DNA of 64,000 nucleotides. It comes from Chloropicon primus. Its lineage: Eukaryota. A model generated the notes under the pieces. The model was given only the letters and a program-made list of their open reading frames with translations. It did not search any database and was not told the origin of the DNA. The position numbers and the translations under genes are program-made. Location: NCBI GenBank assembly GCA_023205875.1, contig CP060754.1, forward strand, positions 1,054,001 through 1,118,000, written 5' to 3'. Position 1 is the stretch's first letter, and every line of letters starts with the position of its first letter. Shown in pieces: positions 36,122-44,982 of the stretch.

Positions 36122-38290
36122 TCAGCGCCTTCGGTGTATGATGCGTCTCTCTCTCCTATGCTCGATGTCTCCCTGCTGCGTGAGGAACACAAGGGACCTT
36201 CTGATGCTCTGCTCCGTGAAGCCGTACTTGATCACGTCATCAATGAGTCTCTTCTCAGAGAGCGAGGCCCCGATGGCGAGGCGCCTCTTGATCTGCTGCT
36301 CGATCTGAGCAAACTCCTCGCGCTGCTCCGCGGTGAAGACAATAGAGTCGACGATTCCAGAATTCGAGGCGTCCACGGTGGACACGTTGAACAAGCGGAT
36401 GGCTTCCCTGACGTGGGACTCGGTGACGTTCAGCTGCAACTGCATCTTGGCGAGACTCTCGCTCACCCTTACAATAGCCTCGAGCTGCCTGACCGTGATC
36501 GGCACCGCGGGAGCGTCCTTCGTCTGGACCGACTGCTCCCTGGCGTTCTGCCTAATCCTGACGTACTCGTTCTGAAGGATCTGCGAAGCGCTCTCAGCCA
36601 TGCGGGGGCTGCACTTGTGCTTGCAGTACTCGATGTACCTCTTCAGGAAGTTGTCCTTGGCGTTGTCGCTGTTGTCCATGATGGTGCTCTCTCCGGCCCT
36701 CCTGTGGACACCGACGATGTGCCTCGCGATCTCCAAATCCCTGTTGAAGGATTTCTCGTCCTTCACGATGAAGATCAAGTCGAACCTACTAAGCATAGTG
36801 GTCTGAATGTCAATGTTCTCCTGCGCGGTCTTCAAGTCGTCGTAGCGACCGGAAGGCGGGTTCGCCGCCGCGAGCACGGCCGCTCGCGAGTTCAGGACCG
36901 TGGTGATGCCAGCCTTGGCGATCGAGATGGTCTGCTGCTCCATGGCCTCGTGGATCGCAACCCTGTCCTCCATTCTCATCTTGTCGAACTCGTCAATGCA
37001 AACGACGCCGCCGTCGGCAAGGACCATGGCGCCGCCCTCGAGGTAGAATTCTCCCGAGGAAGGGTCCTTGATGACAGACGCGGTGAGACCCGCGGCACTG
37101 GAACCCTTACCGGAGGTGTAGACGGAGATCGGCGCGACCTGCTCCACGAACTTGAGGAACTGGGACTTGGCCGTGGACGGGTCACCAAGCATGAGGACGT
37201 TGATGTCGCCCCTGATGCGCGTGCCGTCCGGCAGTCTCTTCCTGGATCCTCCGAACAGGAGGCAGGCGATGGCCCTCTTGATGTCCGGGGAGCCGAAGAT
37301 GGAGGGCGCGATGCTGCCGAAGACTCTGTCCAGGCAGTCGCTCTGGGACGCAAACTCCCTGAAGTTCTGCTCCTCCTCCAGCGTGAAGGTCGGCGAGCTC
37401 CTGCTGCTCCCCTCGGAGTCCTCCTCGAGGCCAACAACGCGGAGGTAAGGCTGGCGGATGGCGAAGTTCTCGTTCTTCCCCTGCTTCGCCTGCATGATGC
37501 TGAAGATTCCGACGGTGGTGACCCTCGTCCCCGGCACGATCTTCTGCACGAGGTGCCTGTCAACGACGAGAAGAATGTTTCTTGGAAGCTCACCGGTCGG
37601 GATGTCCTCGGGGCTCTCCTGCAGCTTGAGCGTCTGCTGGTCGACGTACTTGCTGCTGTCCGGGAGGACCACGAACGGGTCGAGTGGGCACGGCTCCGCG
37701 CCCTCCATCGACTGAAGCTCGCACCGGCGGGGAAGGTTGACCCCCGAAAGGCCAGGCTTGCACACGATCTCCTTGGTGTTCTTGCAGTTCTGGCACTGGA
37801 GGGAAACGTGAGTGGCCTTGGCCCTCGGCTTTCCGGCCGCGGTCACGATGCCCGATATCGTCACCAGCTTGCTCACGTGCTCCGAAGAGAGCTCCCTGAG
37901 GGTCTTGGGCCCGAAGGGCGTCTCGCTGTACAGGAAGACCTGGACCACCTGCTCCGGGGGCTCCGCCCCCTCCTCCTGAAGCGACTGGAGCGACTGGAGC
38001 ACCCTCGCGGAGGCCAACTCCAGCAGCCCGAGGTACTCCGCCGGCTTGTTCACCAGAAGGTCACCGAGCTCGTCGTTGAACTGCCTGATGTGCTCCAGCT
38101 TGATCCGAAGCCTGTCCTTGTTCCTCAGGAGCTGATCCCTATAGATGAACTCGTCGTCCTCGGAACGGAACGTCCTGATGAACTCGGCGAACTTCCTCTC
38201 CGCGATGTGCGCAACGGCGGGAGTGTTGCCCTCGTCCGCCGTGTACCTCTGGTCGCTGTAAAACACATTGCCCTCGTCCCAACCTGCCAT
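36122..38290 (-). CDS. MCM5: DNA replication licensing factor MCM5
   Basis: MAGWDEGNVFYS start, GDPSTAKSQ Walker A, IDEFDKM, SRFD, PITVRQLEA. Confidence 0.96.
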   Translation of the reverse strand: MAGWDEGNVFYSDQRYTADEGNTPAVAHIAERKFAEFIRTFRSEDDEFIYRDQLLRNKDRLRIKLEHIRQFNDELGDLLVNKPAEYLGLLELASARVLQSLQSLQEEGAEPPEQVVQVFLYSETPFGPKTLRELSSEHVSKLVTISGIVTAAGKPRAKATHVSLQCQNCKNTKEIVCKPGLSGVNLPRRCELQSMEGAEPCPLDPFVVLPDSSKYVDQQTLKLQESPEDIPTGELPRNILLVVDRHLVQKIVPGTRVTTVGIFSIMQAKQGKNENFAIRQPYLRVVGLEEDSEGSSRSSPTFTLEEEQNFREFASQSDCLDRVFGSIAPSIFGSPDIKRAIACLLFGGSRKRLPDGTRIRGDINVLMLGDPSTAKSQFLKFVEQVAPISVYTSGKGSSAAGLTASVIKDPSSGEFYLEGGAMVLADGGVVCIDEFDKMRMEDRVAIHEAMEQQTISIAKAGITTVLNSRAAVLAAANPPSGRYDDLKTAQENIDIQTTMLSRFDLIFIVKDEKSFNRDLEIARHIVGVHRRAGESTIMDNSDNAKDNFLKRYIEYCKHKCSPRMAESASQILQNEYVRIRQNAREQSVQTKDAPAVPITVRQLEAIVRVSESLAKMQLQLNVTESHVREAIRLFNVSTVDASNSGIVDSIVFTAEQREEFAQIEQQIKRRLAIGASLSEKRLIDDVIKYGFTEQSIRRSLVFLTQQGDIEHRRERRIIHRRR

Positions 38291-38369
38291 TGTTACCTCG
38301 TGTCGTCGTCGGGGTCGCCGGCTTCTTCTTTTGCTTCTTCTTGCCAACCTCTCGAGAGGCTTTCCCCCT

Positions 38370-38410
38370 CCCGCCAAATTTTCGGGCCCAAAATAATGCC
38401 ATTTTCGCGC
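38370..38410. promoter_or_regulatory. Two E2F-like sites upstream of MCM5
   Basis: TTTCGCGC at 38403-38410 (+) and TTTGGCGG at 38371-38378 (-), 80-120 nt upstream of the MCM5 ATG. Confidence 0.55.
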
Positions 38411-38489
38411 CATTTTTTTTTCTCTGTCTCGCCGATCATTCAAGATAAGAACGGGGGAACGACGAGCAAGAACGAGACAAGAGAGCAAG

Positions 38490-38802
38490 ATGCCGTACAA
38501 GGGAACGAACAGTCAGGTAAGGGAATCGGAATCGATCACCACGACGGCGACGGACGAAAGGAATCCTCCCCTTCCCCTTGCGTTTCGTTTCGTTTCGTTC
38601 TCCTGACTGACACGACGGGGTGAGTGTGTGCTCTCAGGGCAACAACTACACAACTCCCGGTGGGACGAACGGGAACTATGGCGGTTCTTACCATTATTCG
38701 AACCAGAACGGATCGTACTACTATTCGAATGACAACGGTTCGACCTACTACAACAACGGAAGGGGAGGGTCTCACTACTCGCCTCCCCCTGCGAAGAAGT
38801 GA
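38490..38802 (+). CDS. 63-aa Tyr/Asn/Gly/Ser-rich microprotein, join(38490..38516,38638..38802)
   Basis: ATG...CAG|GTAAGG donor, CTGAC branch near 38603-38611, CTCAG acceptor. Product MPYKGTNSQGNNYTTPGGTNGNYGGSYHYSNQNGSYYYSNDNGSTYYNNGRGGSHYSPPPAKK. Confidence 0.8.
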
Positions 38803-40014: not shown

Positions 40015-40347
40015 CGTGCCAAATCCTTGCGCCAATCCAATCCAATCAGAATCAGAATCCAATCAGAATCCAATCCAATCAACCGCGACGGACGCGACGC
40101 AGGCGCTTGACCGACCGACGCACTACGCACGCCTCGCCACTCTGCCCTTCCAACTTCCAACTTCCTCCCCAGGGGACCGACGAGTGCAGAGTACAGAGTG
40201 CAGACTTCCTCCTCCTCTTCGCCTTCTCCTTTGCCTTCGCCTTCCGTCCCAACCGAGCACACCGATACACGATCTCCACGCCTTCCCTCCGTCCCACCTT
40301 CACCCCTCTCCCTCTCTCTTCCTCGCCTTGGCCAACGCCCCCGCTCT

Positions 40348-40397
<50 letters not shown>

Positions 40398-40405
40398 CTC
40401 TCTCG

Positions 40406-40418
40406 TTTCGCGCGCAAA
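40406..40418. promoter_or_regulatory. Near-palindromic E2F-like site upstream of POLD1
   Basis: TTTCGCGCGCAAA, about 240 nt upstream of the POLD1 ATG. Confidence 0.55.
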
Positions 40419-40650
40419 TCCCTCGAAAACTGAAAAAGATCGATCGATCGGGGTGGACGCGGCGCTGGACAAGGAGGGGCACACTCGAGTGGGCACTTGC
40501 GGCGCTGGACAAGGAAGGAACCGGGCTCGAGGGATCTCCAGGACCACGCCACACGTCGCGCGCTCTGCCTTGAGCGGAGGAGTGGAAGTCGTGGTGATTG
40601 ATTGATTGTTTGATTGATTGATTGATTGTTTGATTTGGTTGAAGTTGAAG

Positions 40651-43600
40651 ATGGTGGGGAAGAGGGGAGGGGAAGAGGAAGGGAAGGAGGCGAAGAGGCA
40701 GAACACGGGGGTAGGAGGGATGCCGGGGGGATCGCAAGAGGAGGAGGTGGACATGGACGTGGAGAGGGAGCTCCTCGAGGAGGAGAACGAGCAGGATATG
40801 GTGGAGGCCTTCTTCGATGACCAGAAGCCTTCTTCTATGGATGCACCCTCGCTGGAGGACGGGGACTACGGGAGGAACTGGTGCAGGCCGCCCCTCGAGG
40901 AGGACCAGCTGGACGCGAGCACCCAGCCGCTCGTCTTCCAGCAGATCGAGTGCGACTACACGATACAGCGCGCGCACAAGGATTTCGTTCCTCCCGAGCT
41001 CAAGGGGGCAAGCGTGCCCGTTGTGCGAATGTACGGGGTCAACCGCAGCGGGAACAGCGTGTGCGCTTTCGTGCACGGGTTCGAGCCCTACTTTTACGTG
41101 GAGCTTCCCGGGAGCGGGTTCACTCCGGACGACGTGGACGCCTTCAGGCAGTCCCTGGAGAAGGAGATTATTAACTCCAGGGGGGGCGGAGTCACGAGCG
41201 GCTTCAAGAGCGTCACTCGAATCGAGGTCGAGCAGAAGAAGAGCTTGTGGGGCTACAACCCTGGGCAGAACAAGCCTTTCCTCAAGGTCACTACCCTCCT
41301 GCCCCAGTTCGTCTCCAAGTCGAGGACGATCATAGAGAGGGGCTTGAACATTCCTGGTTTGGGCCACCGGGCCTTTCGCACGTACGAGTCGAACGTGCTG
41401 TTTATCTTGAGGTTCATGATAGACTGCAAAATCGTGGGTGGAAACTGGCTCGAGTTCCCCAAGGGCTCGTACCAGGTTCGACAGGGCTCGGACAAGGCAA
41501 CGTACTCGCAGCTGGAGGTGGACGTGAGGTACGACTCTATCGTGAGCCACGCGAGCGAGGGGGAGTTCATGGACCTCGCCAAGCTGAGGATCTTGTCGAT
41601 CGATATCGAGTGCGCGGGCAGGAAGGGGCACTTCCCTGAGGCGGAGATCGATCCCGTGATTCAGATTGCGAACATGCTGACCGTGCAGGGGGAGCCCGAG
41701 CCGAGGGTGAGGAACATCCTTACTCTGGGGAGCTGCGCACCAATCGTTGGCTCGGAGGTCATGTCCTTCGACAAGGAGGCCGAGCTCTTGAAGAAGTGGG
41801 CGGATCTCGTGAGGAAGACGGACCCTGATATTATCATCGGGTACAACATCCTGAAGTTCGACTTGCCCTACCTCATCGACCGCGCGAACAAGCTGGGCGT
41901 GAAGGAGTTCTCCTACCTCGGAAGGGTCAAGAACAGCGTGGTCAGAATGAGGGACACGGTGTTCTCGTCAAAGGCTTACGGTACGAGGGAGAGCAAGGAG
42001 ATCACGATCGAGGGAAGGGTTCAGTTCGACCTGTTCACCGTCATCCAGCGCGATCACAAGCTCAGCTCTTACTCCCTGAACAACGTCTCTGCGACCTTTC
42101 TGGGAGAGCAGAAGGAGGATGTCCACCACTCCTGCATTACTGACTTGCAGAATGGCAACGAGGAAACCAGGCGGAGGCTCGCGGTGTATTGTCTGAAGGA
42201 TGCTTATCTGCCCCAGCGACTCCTGGACAAGCTGATGTACATGTACAACTACATTGAAATGGCCAGGGTCACGGGCGTACCTTTGAACTTTCTGCTGACC
42301 AGGGGCCAAAGCATCAAAGTTTTCTCCCAAATTCTGAGGAAGGCGCAGGAGAGAGGCCTCCTCGTCCCCGCGCTCAAGGGGGGAGGCCAGCAAGACGGGG
42401 TGGCCTTCGAGGGAGCGACTGTCTTGGAAGCAAATGCGGGGTACTACACGAAACCAGTCGCGACCTTGGATTTCGCGTCCTTGTACCCATCGATTATGAT
42501 GGCCCACAACCTTTGCTACTGCACGCTTTTGCCTCAAAGCATGGTCCGCACCTTGAATCCGGAGGACTACACGAAGACTCCGAGTGGCCAATACTTCGTC
42601 AAGTCTTCCCTCTCCAAAGGAATTCTGCCAGAGATCCTCGAGGAGCTTCTCGGCGCCAGGAAGAGAGCAAAAGCTGAGCTGAAGAAAGCGAAGGATGAAT
42701 TCTTGAAAGGCGTCCTCAATGGTCGCCAGCTTGCACTCAAAGTGAGCGCCAACTCCGTGTACGGCTTTACCGGGGCAACTGTGGGCAAGATGCCGTGCCT
42801 GGAGATCTCCGCGAGCGTGACCGCGTTCGGGAGGGAGATGATCATGCATACGAAGAGTCTTGTGACGCAAAAGTATTGCAAGGCGAACGGTTACGAGTTC
42901 GACAGCGAGGTCGTGTATGGTGACTCGGTCACAGCAGACACGGCTCTGCTTCTGCGCGATGATGCTGGGAAAATCGAAACTCGTCGTATCGATTCAATAT
43001 CGTCGAGCTGGAAGCGCCGAGACGACGGCAAAGAGGTTGCGTACGTTCCTGCAGTCCAGGTGATGACGGACACAGGGTTCGCGAAAATCGAGCAAGTTGT
43101 TCGTCACAAGACGAAAAAGCAAATGTATCGCGTGGTTACGCACAACGGAATTGTAGATGTCACCGAGGACCATAGCCTGCTTCTTGAAGATGCCTCGGAG
43201 GTCAGGCCAGTAGATGTTCAACTTGGCACTCGACTTCTCCACGCAAACCTCAGCGATATCGTTGTGAAAGAGCGAACTCTCGTTTCCAAACAAGAAGCGA
43301 AAGTTATGGGGTTTTTCTTTGGCGACGGAAGCTGTGGAAAATACGGATCTGGAATAGATACAAAGTACAGTTGGGCATTGAGTAACGCGGATTACGAGCT
43401 TTTGCTCTACATGCAGCAGCTCTGTCCGTTCCCCACAAAGCTTCTAGACACTTTGAAGAGTTCGGGCGTGTACAAGCTCGTCACGGTCGGAGACGTCAAA
43501 TCGGTTGTAGTGAAATATCGTGCGATGTTTTACAACGAACACCGGGAGAAGATTGTTCCTCAATGCATTTTGAACGCTTCCAATGAAGTTGTTCAGGCCT

Positions 43601-44982
43601 TCTGGACCGGGTATTATAAGGCAGATGGAGACCGTGGCAATCTGAAACCCGAAGAATACCACAATGCTGATTATGTGGATATGCCCTGTGTGCGTTGCGA
43701 TTGCAAAGGGAAAGAGGGCAGCCTCGGGTTGTACCTCGTCGGCCAGAGGCTCGGCTACAATGTCTCGATCAACACGCGGGCAGACAAGCCGGACATATTT
43801 CGGTTGACGTACACCCGGAACACCCAGAGAAGGTGTCCGACGGCAATCAAAAAGATTGTGAATCTCGGAATTACAGAGCAGTACGTCTACGATCTGACGA
43901 CGTCAAACAGCCATTTTCACGTCGGTCCAGGTAGGATGGTTGTCCACAACACGGATAGTGTCATGATCAAGTTTGGGAACAAGGACTTGAAGAAGAGCAT
44001 GGATTTGGGCGAGGAGGCCGCTCAGTACGTGAGCGACACGTTCGTCAAGCCCATCAAGCTGGAGTTCGAGAAGTGTTATTTCCCGTACTTGCTGATCTCC
44101 AAGAAGAGGTACGCTGGGCTCTTGTGGACGGAAACCGAAAAGTACGACAAGATGGACACCAAGGGTATCGAGACGGTGAGGAGGGACAACTGCGCCCTGG
44201 TGAGGAACGTGGTCTCCTCCTGCCTCGAGAAGGTCCTCATTGAGCAGGACGTCGAAGGCGCCGTCAGCTACGTGAAGAGAACGATCTCCGATCTCCTGCA
44301 GAACAAGCTCGACATGTCCCTGCTTGTGGTGACGAAGGAGCTCTCGAAGACTTCGTATGCCGCGAAGCAGGCCCACGTCGAGCTGGCGGAGAAGATGAGG
44401 AAAAGGGACGCGGCCACCGCGCCCCAGCTGGGGGACCGTGTCCCTTACGTCATCATCAAGGGCCTCAAGGGCGCCAAAGCGTACGAGAAGGCCGAGGACC
44501 CCATCTATGCCCTGGAGAACAAGCTTCCGATAGACTACGCCCACTACGTGGACCACCACCTCTCTCTGCCCCTGATGAGAATCTTCGAGCCGATCATCAA
44601 GAACCCAAAGTCCCTCCTGGTCGGGGAGCACACGAGAAAGGTCGTGAACCCGACGGGCAGGAAAACGGGCGGGGGCATGATGGGCTTCCTCACCGTCGGC
44701 GCCAAGTGCCTGGGGTGCAAGACCCCGCTTCCCAAGGGGGCCGGGAACCTGTGCAAGCACTGCAAGTCCCAGGAGGCCGACATCTACACCAAGGAGGTGC
44801 GAGCGCTGAGGGACCTCGAGGCCGGCTTCAACCGCCTCTGGACGCAGTGCCAGAGGTGCTCCGGCAGCCTCCACCAGGACGTCCTGTGCACGGCCCGGGA
44901 CTGCCCCATCTTCTACAGGAGGAAGAAGACCCAAGTCGACCTCGTGGAGCAGCAGGAGAAGGTCAACACCTTCAGCTGGTAG
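40651..44982 (+). CDS. POLD1: DNA polymerase delta catalytic subunit precursor (1443 aa including a 342-aa intein; 1101 aa after splicing)
   Basis: Exonuclease motifs DIEC, GYNILKFD, YCLKDA. Polymerase motifs DFASLYPS, KVSANSVYG, split YGD/TDS, KKRY, KGIETVRRD. C-terminal CysA and CysB clusters. Confidence 0.97.
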   Translation: MVGKRGGEEEGKEAKRQNTGVGGMPGGSQEEEVDMDVERELLEEENEQDMVEAFFDDQKPSSMDAPSLEDGDYGRNWCRPPLEEDQLDASTQPLVFQQIECDYTIQRAHKDFVPPELKGASVPVVRMYGVNRSGNSVCAFVHGFEPYFYVELPGSGFTPDDVDAFRQSLEKEIINSRGGGVTSGFKSVTRIEVEQKKSLWGYNPGQNKPFLKVTTLLPQFVSKSRTIIERGLNIPGLGHRAFRTYESNVLFILRFMIDCKIVGGNWLEFPKGSYQVRQGSDKATYSQLEVDVRYDSIVSHASEGEFMDLAKLRILSIDIECAGRKGHFPEAEIDPVIQIANMLTVQGEPEPRVRNILTLGSCAPIVGSEVMSFDKEAELLKKWADLVRKTDPDIIIGYNILKFDLPYLIDRANKLGVKEFSYLGRVKNSVVRMRDTVFSSKAYGTRESKEITIEGRVQFDLFTVIQRDHKLSSYSLNNVSATFLGEQKEDVHHSCITDLQNGNEETRRRLAVYCLKDAYLPQRLLDKLMYMYNYIEMARVTGVPLNFLLTRGQSIKVFSQILRKAQERGLLVPALKGGGQQDGVAFEGATVLEANAGYYTKPVATLDFASLYPSIMMAHNLCYCTLLPQSMVRTLNPEDYTKTPSGQYFVKSSLSKGILPEILEELLGARKRAKAELKKAKDEFLKGVLNGRQLALKVSANSVYGFTGATVGKMPCLEISASVTAFGREMIMHTKSLVTQKYCKANGYEFDSEVVYGDSVTADTALLLRDDAGKIETRRIDSISSSWKRRDDGKEVAYVPAVQVMTDTGFAKIEQVVRHKTKKQMYRVVTHNGIVDVTEDHSLLLEDASEVRPVDVQLGTRLLHANLSDIVVKERTLVSKQEAKVMGFFFGDGSCGKYGSGIDTKYSWALSNADYELLLYMQQLCPFPTKLLDTLKSSGVYKLVTVGDVKSVVVKYRAMFYNEHREKIVPQCILNASNEVVQAFWTGYYKADGDRGNLKPEEYHNADYVDMPCVRCDCKGKEGSLGLYLVGQRLGYNVSINTRADKPDIFRLTYTRNTQRRCPTAIKKIVNLGITEQYVYDLTTSNSHFHVGPGRMVVHNTDSVMIKFGNKDLKKSMDLGEEAAQYVSDTFVKPIKLEFEKCYFPYLLISKKRYAGLLWTETEKYDKMDTKGIETVRRDNCALVRNVVSSCLEKVLIEQDVEGAVSYVKRTISDLLQNKLDMSLLVVTKELSKTSYAAKQAHVELAEKMRKRDAATAPQLGDRVPYVIIKGLKGAKAYEKAEDPIYALENKLPIDYAHYVDHHLSLPLMRIFEPIIKNPKSLLVGEHTRKVVNPTGRKTGGGMMGFLTVGAKCLGCKTPLPKGAGNLCKHCKSQEADIYTKEVRALRDLEAGFNRLWTQCQRCSGSLHQDVLCTARDCPIFYRRKKTQVDLVEQQEKVNTFSW
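42925..43950 (+). mobile_element. Full-length intein with LAGLIDADG homing endonuclease in POLD1 motif C
   Basis: YGD|SVTADT (block A), VDVTEDHSLL (block B TxxH), MGFFFGDG (block C), FWTGYYKADG (block E), VYDLTTSNSHFHV (block F), VVHN|TDS (block G, +1 Thr). Removal restores YGDTDSVMI. Confidence 0.97.

What the first reader, a model, noticed from the sequence alone, without database searches (positions are those of the whole stretch)
42925..43950. Intein in the catalytic YGDTDS motif of a nuclear DNA polymerase delta
Seen in sequence: a 1026-nt (342-aa) in-frame insertion splits motif C as YGD|S...HN|TDS. All splicing residues are present (Ser1, block B TxxH, block F Asp, terminal His-Asn, +1 Thr), and excision gives a normal ~1100-aa POLD1. 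Established knowledge: this is the site used by archaeal PolB inteins (Thermococcus Pol-2 type) and giant-virus PolB inteins (Mimivirus type), which also start with Ser and use +1 Thr. Nuclear inteins are sporadic and best known from fungal VMA1/PRP8, RNA polymerase subunits and a few protists. Inference: the essential lagging-strand polymerase of this alga depends on protein splicing. This may be undescribed for this lineage and could make replication conditional on splicing.
Basis: partly seen in the sequence, partly recalled or inferred. Interest (0 to 1): 0.95.

Follow-up and report, generated by a model that had tools for sequence, protein, structure and literature searches.

The report
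Known intein in algal polymerase delta
A 342-residue intein with a homing-endonuclease domain interrupts the catalytic YGDTDS motif of the nuclear DNA polymerase delta gene of a Chloropicon primus-like green alga; it is predicted to splice itself out of the protein, likely came from a giant-virus polymerase, and its presence was already noted in a 2023 paper.

Summary
Window 42925-43950 is an open 342-codon insert that splits motif C of a 1443-aa DNA polymerase delta catalytic subunit as YGD|S...HN|TDS.

It is an intein. A high-confidence model (pLDDT 94.8) matches intein-endonuclease crystal structures (PI-PkoII, Z 29.0). All core splicing residues and both LAGLIDADG aspartates are kept. Eight of eight other POLD1 proteins aligned, including five close relatives, lack exactly these 342 residues. 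A transcriptome-derived protein contains the whole insert, so it is not an intron.

Its relatives (55-63% identity, over 1,775 proteins) sit at the same site of giant-virus-type PolB. One such gene lies between two NCLDV capsid genes. The intein's GC3 (0.58) falls between viral inteins (0.29-0.37) and the host exteins (0.81 and 0.90). A virus-to-alga transfer is therefore likely.

The endonuclease domain looks relaxed. It has a lineage-specific 13-residue insertion and 15 nonsynonymous against 4 synonymous changes versus a metagenomic variant.

The protein is 1442/1443 identical to Chloropicon primus QDZ18123.1. PMC10710043 (2023) names that accession as an intein-bearing DNApol delta. The finding is real but already known. 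Splicing itself remains untested.

The parts
40651..44982 (+). Intronless ORF for the DNA polymerase delta catalytic subunit precursor (1443 aa plus stop)
   Evidence: Pfam: DNA_pol_B 3.7e-143, DNA_pol_B_exo1 7.4e-67, zf-C4pol 1.4e-19, POL3_N 8.1e-8. It is 1442/1443 identical to QDZ18123.1.
40651..42924 (+). N-extein (758 aa), ending ...VVYGD
   Evidence: GC3 is 0.809. Residues 300-758 are 84-92% identical to five intein-free POLD1 relatives.
42925..43950 (+). Intein, 342 aa (P0001)
   Evidence: The gap is exact in 8 of 8 other POLD1 proteins. GC3 is 0.579.
42925..43275 (+). N-terminal part of the Hint splicing domain (about residues 1-117). It holds Ser1 (42925-42927) and block B T80-E-D-H83 (43162-43173).
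   Evidence: The model shows beta strands over residues 7-87. Mini-intein matches score Z 13-16. Columns S1, T80 and H83 are invariant in 132 of 132 sequences.
43276..43830 (+). LAGLIDADG homing-endonuclease domain (about residues 118-302). Motif 1 is KVMGFFFGDGS with D134 (43324-43326). Motif 2 is AFWTGYYKADGD with D234 (43624-43626).
   Evidence: I-DmoI scores Z 11.4 and E-DreI Z 12.1 on residues 118-302. PI-PkoII motif 2 is aligned. D134 is kept in 132/132 and D234 in 129/132.
43639..43677 (+). Lineage-specific 13-residue insertion (residues 239-251, NLKPEEYHNADYV) just after LAGLIDADG motif 2
   Evidence: Residue 239 is a gap in 125 of the 131 other family members, and residues 240-251 in all 131. 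Model pLDDT is lower here, 73-84. Seven nonsynonymous changes fall in it versus a metagenomic variant.
43831..43950 (+). C-terminal part of the Hint domain (about residues 303-342). It holds block F D323 (43891-43893) and block G H341-N342 (43945-43950).
43951..44979 (+). C-extein (343 aa), starting with the +1 Thr (43951-43953) of TDSVMIK and holding the C4 zinc-finger domain
   Evidence: GC3 is 0.904.

Best explanation
The in-frame 1,026-nt insert at 42925-43950 encodes a 342-residue intein (a Hint splicing domain enclosing a LAGLIDADG endonuclease domain) that splits motif C (YGD|TDS) of the nuclear DNA polymerase delta catalytic subunit, and it is predicted to excise itself from the translated precursor by protein splicing.

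Shown here:
- The insert is there and open.
- It has the intein fold and all core residues.
- It is absent, to the residue, from the closest POLD1 relatives.
- It is present in a transcriptome-derived protein.
- The host gene is a cellular POLD1 among nuclear housekeeping genes.

Inferred mechanism (class-1 splicing, from established intein chemistry):
1. An N-O acyl shift at Ser1.
2. Transesterification to the side chain of Thr+1.
3. Cyclisation of Asn342, helped by His341.
4. An O-N shift that restores the YGD-TDS peptide bond and so the metal-binding catalytic motif.

Inferred history: the element likely entered from the same site of a prasinovirus-like giant-virus PolB through its homing endonuclease. 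It became fixed, and its endonuclease domain now evolves under relaxed constraint.
For: Fold:
- The AlphaFold model has pLDDT 94.8 and pTM 0.93.
- Best structural matches are PI-PkoII 2cw8_A (Z 29.0, rmsd 4.3, 312 aligned), TliVMA intein 7qsu_A (Z 26.5, 304 aligned) and PI-PfuI (Z 20.8).
- Mini-inteins score Z 13-16, and free LAGLIDADG enzymes Z 11-12 on residues 118-302.

Sequence:
- A profile of 10 intein-only sequences hit 8 PDB sequences at E<=0.01. All 8 are inteins: the TFIIB intein at 2e-8 and PI-PkoII at 6.1e-8.
- Pfam Intein_splicing scores E 1.4e-7.
- Core residues are kept.

Empty sites: 8 of 8 other POLD1 proteins lack exactly the 342 residues. Five of them are 71-86% identical over their full length.

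Not an intron:
- P0220, an MMETSP-sourced protein of 1137 aa, is 100% identical over residues 307-1443 and includes the whole insert.
- Contigs of runs X4 and X5 bridge both junctions, and no joint was reported.
- The insert ends TC..AC.

Not a chimera:
- A second protein record from a different contig (QDZ18123.1, 1,876,603 nt) is identical to the window's protein through the insert and both junctions.
- A 3,964-nt JGI contig encodes a 932-aa protein that includes the whole insert (P0221).
- X6 bridges the N junction, and a diverged X9 contig bridges the C junction.

Cellular host:
- The extein is 62% identical to Klebsormidium POLD1, 86% to P0222, and 35% to the viral PolB of L036.
- It carries zf-C4pol.
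- Neighbouring genes are MCM5, MFAP1, NOT1, clathrin heavy chain, U1-70K and PRP4.

Viral kin:
- More than 1,775 relatives were found, and 119 of the 119 other listed rows lack zf-C4pol.
- 122 of 131 full-length relatives have the same YGD|S..HN|TDS junctions.
- 124 of 129 host proteins are closer to viral PolB.
- The intein-bearing PolB of L009 lies between two Capsid_NCLDV genes.
- BFVD's best named hit is an 'unknown phycodnavirus' DNA polymerase at 54% identity.
- The tree places the query inside a 40-row clade, support 96/91.

Composition: intein GC3 is 0.579, exteins 0.809 and 0.904, and viral inteins 0.29-0.37.

Endonuclease relaxation: 15 nonsynonymous against 4 synonymous changed codons in the intein, versus 2 against 13 in the C-extein (Fisher p 3.6e-4).
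Against: - No protein-level evidence of splicing was available.
- The window's own Pfam score (31.9 bits) is below the curated cut-off of 35.8.
- Nine residues, plus 14 inserted positions that relatives lack, depart from columns that are at least 90% conserved. They include W47M, N153S and H329S next to block F. Their effect on splicing is unknown.
- That X4 and X5 are RNA is the tool's guess. That MMETSP data are transcriptomes is recalled, not shown by a call.
- No whole genome is held for this window, so a second, intein-free POLD1 copy could not be searched for directly.
- The donor is unsampled. The query sits on a long end branch (0.99) at the base of its clade, and the branch uniting the other 39 rows is weak (72/23).
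- GC3 also varies between host genes (NOT1 0.638).
- The synonymous/nonsynonymous count rests on low-depth contigs of one metagenome, which may mix lineages. Eight further differences were not shown.
Confidence: 0.85

Rival explanations
1. The segment is a spliceosomal intron or otherwise removed at the RNA level, and its open frame is incidental.
For: The published average for Chloropicon primus, to which the window's protein is 1442/1443 identical, is 0.50 intron per gene (PMC6731263, passage read). The RNA status of X4 and X5 is only a guess.
Against: The ends are TC..AC. The length is a multiple of 3, and the chance of the frame staying open is 2.3e-8. The published mean intron size is 152 bp, against 1,026 bp here. 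An MMETSP-sourced protein contains the whole insert. X4 and X5 contigs bridge both junctions without a joint. The encoded protein has an intein fold at Z 29.
Confidence: 0.01
2. The host gene is an endogenised giant-virus PolB that brought its intein along, as in Klebsormidium or Tetrabaena (PMC10710043), and is not the cell's own polymerase delta.
For: All close relatives of the intein are in virus-type PolB. PMC10710043 describes such viral-like intein-bearing polymerases in nuclear scaffolds of other algae (section 8 read).
Against: The exteins are 62% identical to Klebsormidium POLD1 and 86% to P0222, but only 35% to viral PolB. zf-C4pol and POL3_N are present. Extein GC3 is 0.81 and 0.90, against 0.38-0.43 in viral PolB. 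The flanking genes are cellular housekeeping genes. The top hits of the extein search are plant and algal POLD1 proteins.
Confidence: 0.02
3. The intein is splicing-dead, a fixed non-excising insertion or pseudogene, and polymerase delta function comes from another copy.
For: There are departures from conserved columns (W47M, H329S and others). There is no protein evidence. The genome could not be searched.
Against: All core catalytic residues are kept. The frame is intact over 1443 codons. The C-extein shows 13 synonymous against 2 nonsynonymous changed codons versus a variant, which points to purifying selection. No second NCBI-sourced close POLD1 appeared among the 120 rows listed. The gene appears to be transcribed: an MMETSP-sourced protein covers residues 307-1443.
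Confidence: 0.07
4. The transfer ran the other way, or the intein is ancestral: an old cellular POLD1 intein seeded the viral PolB inteins and was lost in other Chloropicophyceae.
For: The query branches at the base of its clade, not deep inside it. The branch uniting the remaining 39 rows is weak at 72/23.
Against: Only one cellular host stands against more than 1,775 virus-type hosts. Five of five close POLD1 relatives have empty sites. The intein's GC3 lies between viral and host values. More distant outgroup inteins are also in virus-type PolB.
Confidence: 0.1

Closest known systems
Chloropicon primus DNApol delta intein (QDZ18123.1), noted in Gallot-Lavallee et al. 2023, PNAS, PMC10710043
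   Same: It is the same element. The window's protein is 1442/1443 identical, and fully identical across the intein. The paper lists this accession as an intein-containing KOG0969 protein (passage read).
   Different: The paper gives one bracketed sentence in its main text. The two supplementary files held as text have 0 occurrences of 'Chloropicon' or of the accession. The following are worked out here and were not seen in the text read: the insertion site, the empty sites in relatives, the closest viral kin, the codon composition and the endonuclease relaxation. Other supplements of that paper could not be seen.
PolB inteins of prasinovirus-like / phycodnavirus giant viruses (e.g. UniProt C1IWE3, 'unknown phycodnavirus' DNA polymerase fragment)
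   Same: The insertion site is the same (YGD|S...HN|TDS in 122 of 131). Identity is 55-63%. The architecture is the same, and the models match at TM 0.90-0.91.
   Different: The hosts are viral PolB proteins of about 909 aa without zf-C4pol, only 35% identical to this POLD1. Viral copies are 317-330 aa in most cases and lack the 13-residue insertion. The viral population is polymorphic: 9 occupied and 67 empty sites among 76 scored.
Mimivirus PolB intein, the 'pol-c allele' (Ogata et al. 2005, PMC549080)
   Same: It is inserted exactly at YGD|TDS, the site called pol-c / position III (passages read). It is a viral pol-delta-like PolB host. A Megavirus PolB is among the fold matches.
   Different: It is much more distant in sequence (26% identity for the Megavirus hit). 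Its host is a virus, not a cell.
Anaeramoeba nuclear DNApol alpha/delta/epsilon inteins (PMC10710043)
   Same: These are nuclear replicative family-B polymerases that carry inteins (passages read).
   Different: The eukaryotic lineage is different. Relatedness and site identity to this intein were not tested here.
PI-PkoII (2cw8) and TliVMA intein (7qsu), archaeal intein-endonucleases with solved structures
   Same: The two-domain fold is the same over nearly the whole length (Z 29.0 and 26.5).
   Different: Identity is 22%. The hosts are archaeal. PI-PkoII is 537 aa and has extra domains.

Membership tests
Intein (Hint-domain protein-splicing element, class 1) | Hint (hedgehog/intein) fold formed by the N- and C-terminal parts | tested here: met
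   The model has pLDDT 94.8. Z is 13-16 to mini-inteins over residues 1..342, and Z 29.0 to PI-PkoII.
Intein (Hint-domain protein-splicing element, class 1) | Nucleophile at position 1 (Ser/Cys) and block B TxxH | tested here: met
   S1, T80 and H83 are present. Each is invariant in 132 of 132 family members.
Intein (Hint-domain protein-splicing element, class 1) | C-terminal His-Asn followed by a +1 Ser/Thr/Cys; block F Asp | tested here: met
   H341 (130/132), N342 (132/132), D323 (132/132) and +1 Thr.
Intein (Hint-domain protein-splicing element, class 1) | In-frame insertion at a conserved host site that is precisely empty in homologues | tested here: met
   8 of 8 other POLD1 proteins have YGD directly followed by TDS.
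Intein (Hint-domain protein-splicing element, class 1) | Score above Pfam's curated threshold for PF14890 Intein_splicing | tested here: inconclusive
   The window's intein scores 31.9 bits against a cut-off of 35.8 (E 1.4e-7). Its viral relative in L009 scores 37.3 bits.
Intein (Hint-domain protein-splicing element, class 1) | Actual autocatalytic excision and extein ligation | not testable with these tools
   This needs a protein-level experiment.
LAGLIDADG (double-motif) homing endonuclease domain | Two LAGLIDADG helices, each ending in an acidic residue, in an alpha-beta-beta-alpha-beta-beta-alpha pseudo-dimer fold | tested here: met
   D134 and D234 are kept. I-DmoI scores Z 11.4 and E-DreI Z 12.1 on residues 118-302. 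Motif 2 aligns with PI-PkoII. Pfam LAGLIDADG_3 is only weak (E 0.0038).
LAGLIDADG (double-motif) homing endonuclease domain | Site-specific DNA cleavage of the intein-less allele | not testable with these tools
   The 13-residue insertion and the excess of nonsynonymous change suggest, but do not show, loss of activity.
pol-c allele of family-B DNA polymerase inteins | Insertion between YGD and TDS of motif C | tested here: met
   The definition of pol-c is from PMC549080.
Eukaryotic DNA polymerase delta catalytic subunit (host protein) | Exonuclease and polymerase domains plus a C-terminal CysA/CysB zinc-finger domain; nearest homologues are POLD1 | tested here: met
   Pfam hits. The top named hits are plant and algal 'DNA polymerase delta catalytic subunit' proteins at 70-75% identity.
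Spliceosomal intron (considered) | GT..AG ends and absence from mature mRNA | tested here: not met
   The ends are TC..AC. An MMETSP-sourced protein includes the insert.

The most novel reading that the evidence does not exclude
A pol-c intein jumped from the DNA polymerase of a prasinovirus-like giant virus into the equivalent catalytic site of its green-algal host's own replicative polymerase. The two exteins are only about 35% identical. The intein then became fixed, and its homing endonuclease is now decaying. This would be a concrete, datable case of virus-to-host intein homing in a eukaryote. It would leave chromosome replication dependent on protein splicing.
Probability: 0.55. Interest if true: 0.6.

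Novelty: already known. Interest (0 to 1): 0.35.

Why it matters
Nuclear inteins in replicative DNA polymerases are rare. A 2018 survey found DNA-polymerase inteins only in viral DNA and 'no intein overlap ... between virus and virus host' (PMC5784728, passages read).

This alga's essential lagging-strand polymerase carries one in its metal-binding motif. Cell division should therefore depend on splicing.

The element's kinship with giant-virus PolB inteins gives a clean example for the idea that viruses spread inteins into eukaryotic genes (PMC10710043).

Its existence is already in print. The added value here is the anatomy, the empty sites in sister lineages, the viral clade and the signs of endonuclease decay.

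Tried and rejected
- Whole-genome search of the window's assembly: no genome is held.
- Red-alga lead: the literature searches 'intein' with 'Cyanidioschyzon' or 'red alga' gave nothing relevant.
- The look-up of sequencing runs listed no holder on record as RNA. This is no evidence on expression.
- A 20-kb read-laying request was meant to test whether X4 and X5 behave like RNA. The RNA status of X4 and X5 therefore stays a guess.
- Read laying on four marine metagenomes showed no contig joining 42924 to 43951. This is a blank, not evidence that empty alleles are absent in nature.
- A single-protein scan of viral contigs found only 4 loci at 32-34% identity.
- The metagenome-contig scan found 12 loci, the best at 46% identity, so no close variant.
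- The protein-atlas search gave only generic LAGLIDADG/intein clusters.
- The two supplementary files of PMC10710043 held as text have 0 occurrences of Chloropicon or the accessions.
- The search of earlier findings returned nothing in three look-ups.
It was still queued, so nothing came of it.
- Foldseek against 'pdb' was never run because the machine was busy. The VIA-align wide search was used instead.
- An earlier notebook phrase, that a 16-nt core is identical between window and virus, was too strong. The best viral allele shares 16 of the central 18 nt and 33 of 48.

Full report
**1. The observation**

- The + strand is open from 40618 to 44982. From the ATG at 40651 it encodes 1443 residues.
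- Positions 42925-43950 translate into 342 residues without a stop. They begin SVTADTALL and end GRMVVHN. VVYGD stands before them and TDSVMIKFG after them.
- With the insert's base composition, 342 open codons are expected by chance at 2.3e-8. The other two frames carry 16 and 8 stops. The insert ends TC...AC.

**2. The host gene**

- Pfam finds DNA_pol_B (3.7e-143), the family-B exonuclease domain (7.4e-67), the C4 zinc finger of polymerase delta (1.4e-19) and POL3_N.
- A search with residues 300-758 returned plant and green-algal 'DNA polymerase delta catalytic subunit' proteins at 70-75% identity. It also returned five unnamed metagenomic proteins at 84-92%.
- Inside a script, the exteins with the intein removed are 86% identical to P0222 and 62% to Klebsormidium POLD1. 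They are only 35% identical to a giant-virus PolB.
- The neighbouring ORFs are ordinary nuclear genes: MCM5, MFAP1, NOT1, clathrin heavy chain, U1-70K, PRP4 and a Sec63/DEAD helicase. None of the 27 ORFs scanned showed another intein at E<=1e-5.
- This is the cell's own POLD1, not an endogenised viral polymerase.

**3. The organism and prior description**

- An exact look-up put the window's protein in a cluster of four sequences.
- One member is QDZ18123.1, 'catalytic subunit of DNA polymerase delta [Chloropicon primus]'. It is 1442/1443 identical, and the only difference lies outside the intein.
- Window GC is 0.575. The published genome averages 57.5% GC, with chromosomes of 0.37-1.88 Mb and 0.50 intron per gene (PMC6731263, passages read).
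- A full-text search for 'Chloropicon' plus 'intein' found 2 papers, and only this one is relevant.
- The two Chloropicon genome papers have 0 occurrences of 'intein' in their main texts.
- The 2018 survey of eukaryotic inteins listed DNA-polymerase inteins only for viral DNA (PMC5784728, passages read).
- The existence of this intein is therefore already in print, as a one-line remark.

**4. Is it an intein?**

- Alone, the insert scores E 1.4e-7 on Pfam Intein_splicing. That is 31.9 bits, under the curated 35.8.
- Stronger tests followed. A profile of ten intein-only sequences (alignment A3) hit 8 PDB sequences at E<=0.01, and all 8 are inteins.
- A model built on 54 aligned relatives has pLDDT 94.8 and pTM 0.93.
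- Against 48,161 PDB representatives the model matches:

| Match | Z | Notes |
|---|---|---|
| PI-PkoII | 29.0 | rmsd 4.3, 312 aligned |
| TliVMA intein | 26.5 | 304 aligned |
| PI-PfuI | 20.8 | |
| PI-SceI | 15.5 | |
| Many mini-inteins | 13-16 | |
| I-DmoI / E-DreI (free LAGLIDADG enzymes) | 11.4 / 12.1 | on residues 118-302 |

  (all)
- The anatomy is Hint-N (about residues 1-117), a LAGLIDADG endonuclease domain (about 118-302), and Hint-C (about 303-342).
- Conservation across 132 aligned family members:

| Residue | Kept in |
|---|---|
| S1, T80, H83, D134, D323, N342 | 132 of 132 |
| H341 | 130 of 132 |
| D234 | 129 of 132 |

**5. Empty sites, and the RNA and chimera tests**

- In alignment A1, all 8 other POLD1 proteins run YGD-TDS without a gap. 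They lack exactly the 342 residues. Five of them are 71-86% identical to the window's protein over the full length.
- A cluster member sourced from MMETSP (transcriptome assemblies, from recall) is 100% identical over residues 307-1443, intein included.
- Contigs of runs X4 and X5 (marked 'RNA?', a guess) bridge both junctions, and no joint was reported.
- Further independent DNA support:
  - a second protein record from a different contig (QDZ18123.1, 1,876,603 nt), identical through the insert and both junctions;
  - a JGI contig;
  - a metagenome contig that bridges the N junction (X6);
  - a diverged contig that bridges the C junction (X9).
- The intron and chimera readings are rejected.

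**6. Relatives and likely origin**

- The intein has more than 1,775 relatives in proteins of 600-2000 aa. Among the 120 rows listed, only the window's own protein carries zf-C4pol.
- Of 131 relatives covering the full intein, 122 have the junctions YGD|S...HN|TDS.
- Of the 129 whose exteins gave a BLAST hit, 124 are closer to a viral PolB (median 73% identity) than to this POLD1 (median 36%). The other 5 are short fragments or distant proteins at about 30-37%.
- One close relative (P0145, 57%) occurs on IMG/VR viral contigs, some labelled GVMAG.
- In L009 the intein-bearing PolB lies between two Capsid_NCLDV genes and next to a topoisomerase II gene.
- BFVD's best named hit is a DNA polymerase fragment of an 'unknown phycodnavirus' at 54% identity. 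Pandoravirus, Marseillevirus, Megavirus and Heterosigma akashiwo virus PolB follow.
- Among the 83 loci then held, 76 sites were scored. Nine are occupied and 67 empty, so the viral population is polymorphic, as expected of a homing element.
- The best viral allele shares 33 of 48 nt around the site with the alga, and 16 of the central 18.
- A careful tree was built from 49 rows. Five long rows were left out, and 132 inteins had been thinned at 82% identity. It places the algal intein inside a 40-row clade with support 96/91. The intein sits on a long branch (0.99) at the base of that clade.
- GC3 is 0.579 in the intein, 0.809 and 0.904 in the exteins, and 0.29-0.37 in five viral inteins.
- Taken together, a transfer from a prasinovirus-like PolB into the host's POLD1 is the most economical history. 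The donor is not sampled and the direction is inferred.

**7. State of the endonuclease**

- The algal intein has a 13-residue insertion (239-251) directly after LAGLIDADG motif 2. Residues 240-251 are a gap in all 131 other family members, and residue 239 in 125 of them. Model confidence is lower there.
- One marine metagenome (X9) holds contigs 91-97% identical to the intein, and one of them bridges the C junction.
- Among the differences listed, 15 of 19 changed intein codons are nonsynonymous. All 15 lie in the endonuclease domain, and 7 lie in the insertion. In the C-extein, 13 of 15 changed codons are synonymous (Fisher p 3.6e-4).
- This fits relaxed constraint on an endonuclease that has no empty target left. 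It rests on low-depth contigs of one sample, and 8 further differences were not shown.

**8. Mechanism**

- Shown: the precursor ORF, the fold, the residues, and retention of the insert in a transcript-derived protein.
- Inferred from established class-1 intein chemistry:
  1. Ser1 makes an ester.
  2. Thr+1 attacks it.
  3. Asn342 cyclises with the help of His341.
  4. An O-N shift restores YGD-TDS.
- The two aspartates of this motif bind the catalytic metals (established knowledge of family-B polymerases). An unspliced precursor should therefore be inactive.
- Whether splicing is regulated is unknown.

**9. Verdict**

It is a genuine pol-c-type intein in a nuclear POLD1, and its presence is already published. 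Interest is moderate to low. The most novel reading still open is a documented virus-to-host homing event with later endonuclease decay.

Noticed in passing
window 43639-43677: There is a 13-residue insertion (NLKPEEYHNADYV) right after the second LAGLIDADG motif. Residues 240-251 are a gap in all 131 other family members, and residue 239 in 125 of them. It is also the most changed stretch in a metagenomic variant, with 7 nonsynonymous codons.
   Followed up: partly
window 43299-44195 (run X9): One marine metagenome holds contigs 91-97% identical to the intein, and one of them bridges the intein/C-extein junction. A diverged lineage therefore carries the same intein at the same site. Two other metagenomes (X7, X10) hold 100% identical intein pieces.
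   Followed up: partly
loci L005-L083 (IMG/VR): The prasinovirus-like PolB gene related to P0145 is polymorphic for the intein. Of 76 sites scored, 9 are occupied and 67 empty. In L009 and L036 the gene lies beside NCLDV capsid paralogues and a topoisomerase II gene.
   Followed up: partly
not in this window (reported in PMC10710043): The same paper reports a second intein in the DNA polymerase zeta of Chloropicon primus (QDZ21998). Whether it is a paralogous copy of this intein at the same motif could not be checked here.
   Followed up: no
L085:1235-6151: A 1639-aa family-B polymerase without the delta zinc finger sits on a 559-kb metagenome contig. It carries an intein 46% identical to this one.
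   Followed up: partly
window 36122-38500 (-) and 40651-44982 (+): MCM5 and POLD1, both replication genes, lie about 2 kb apart with only an MFAP1-like gene between them. The 40063-40650 spacer between MFAP1 and POLD1 is rich in CT/GA dinucleotide runs, seen as SLSL and RERE translations.
   Followed up: no
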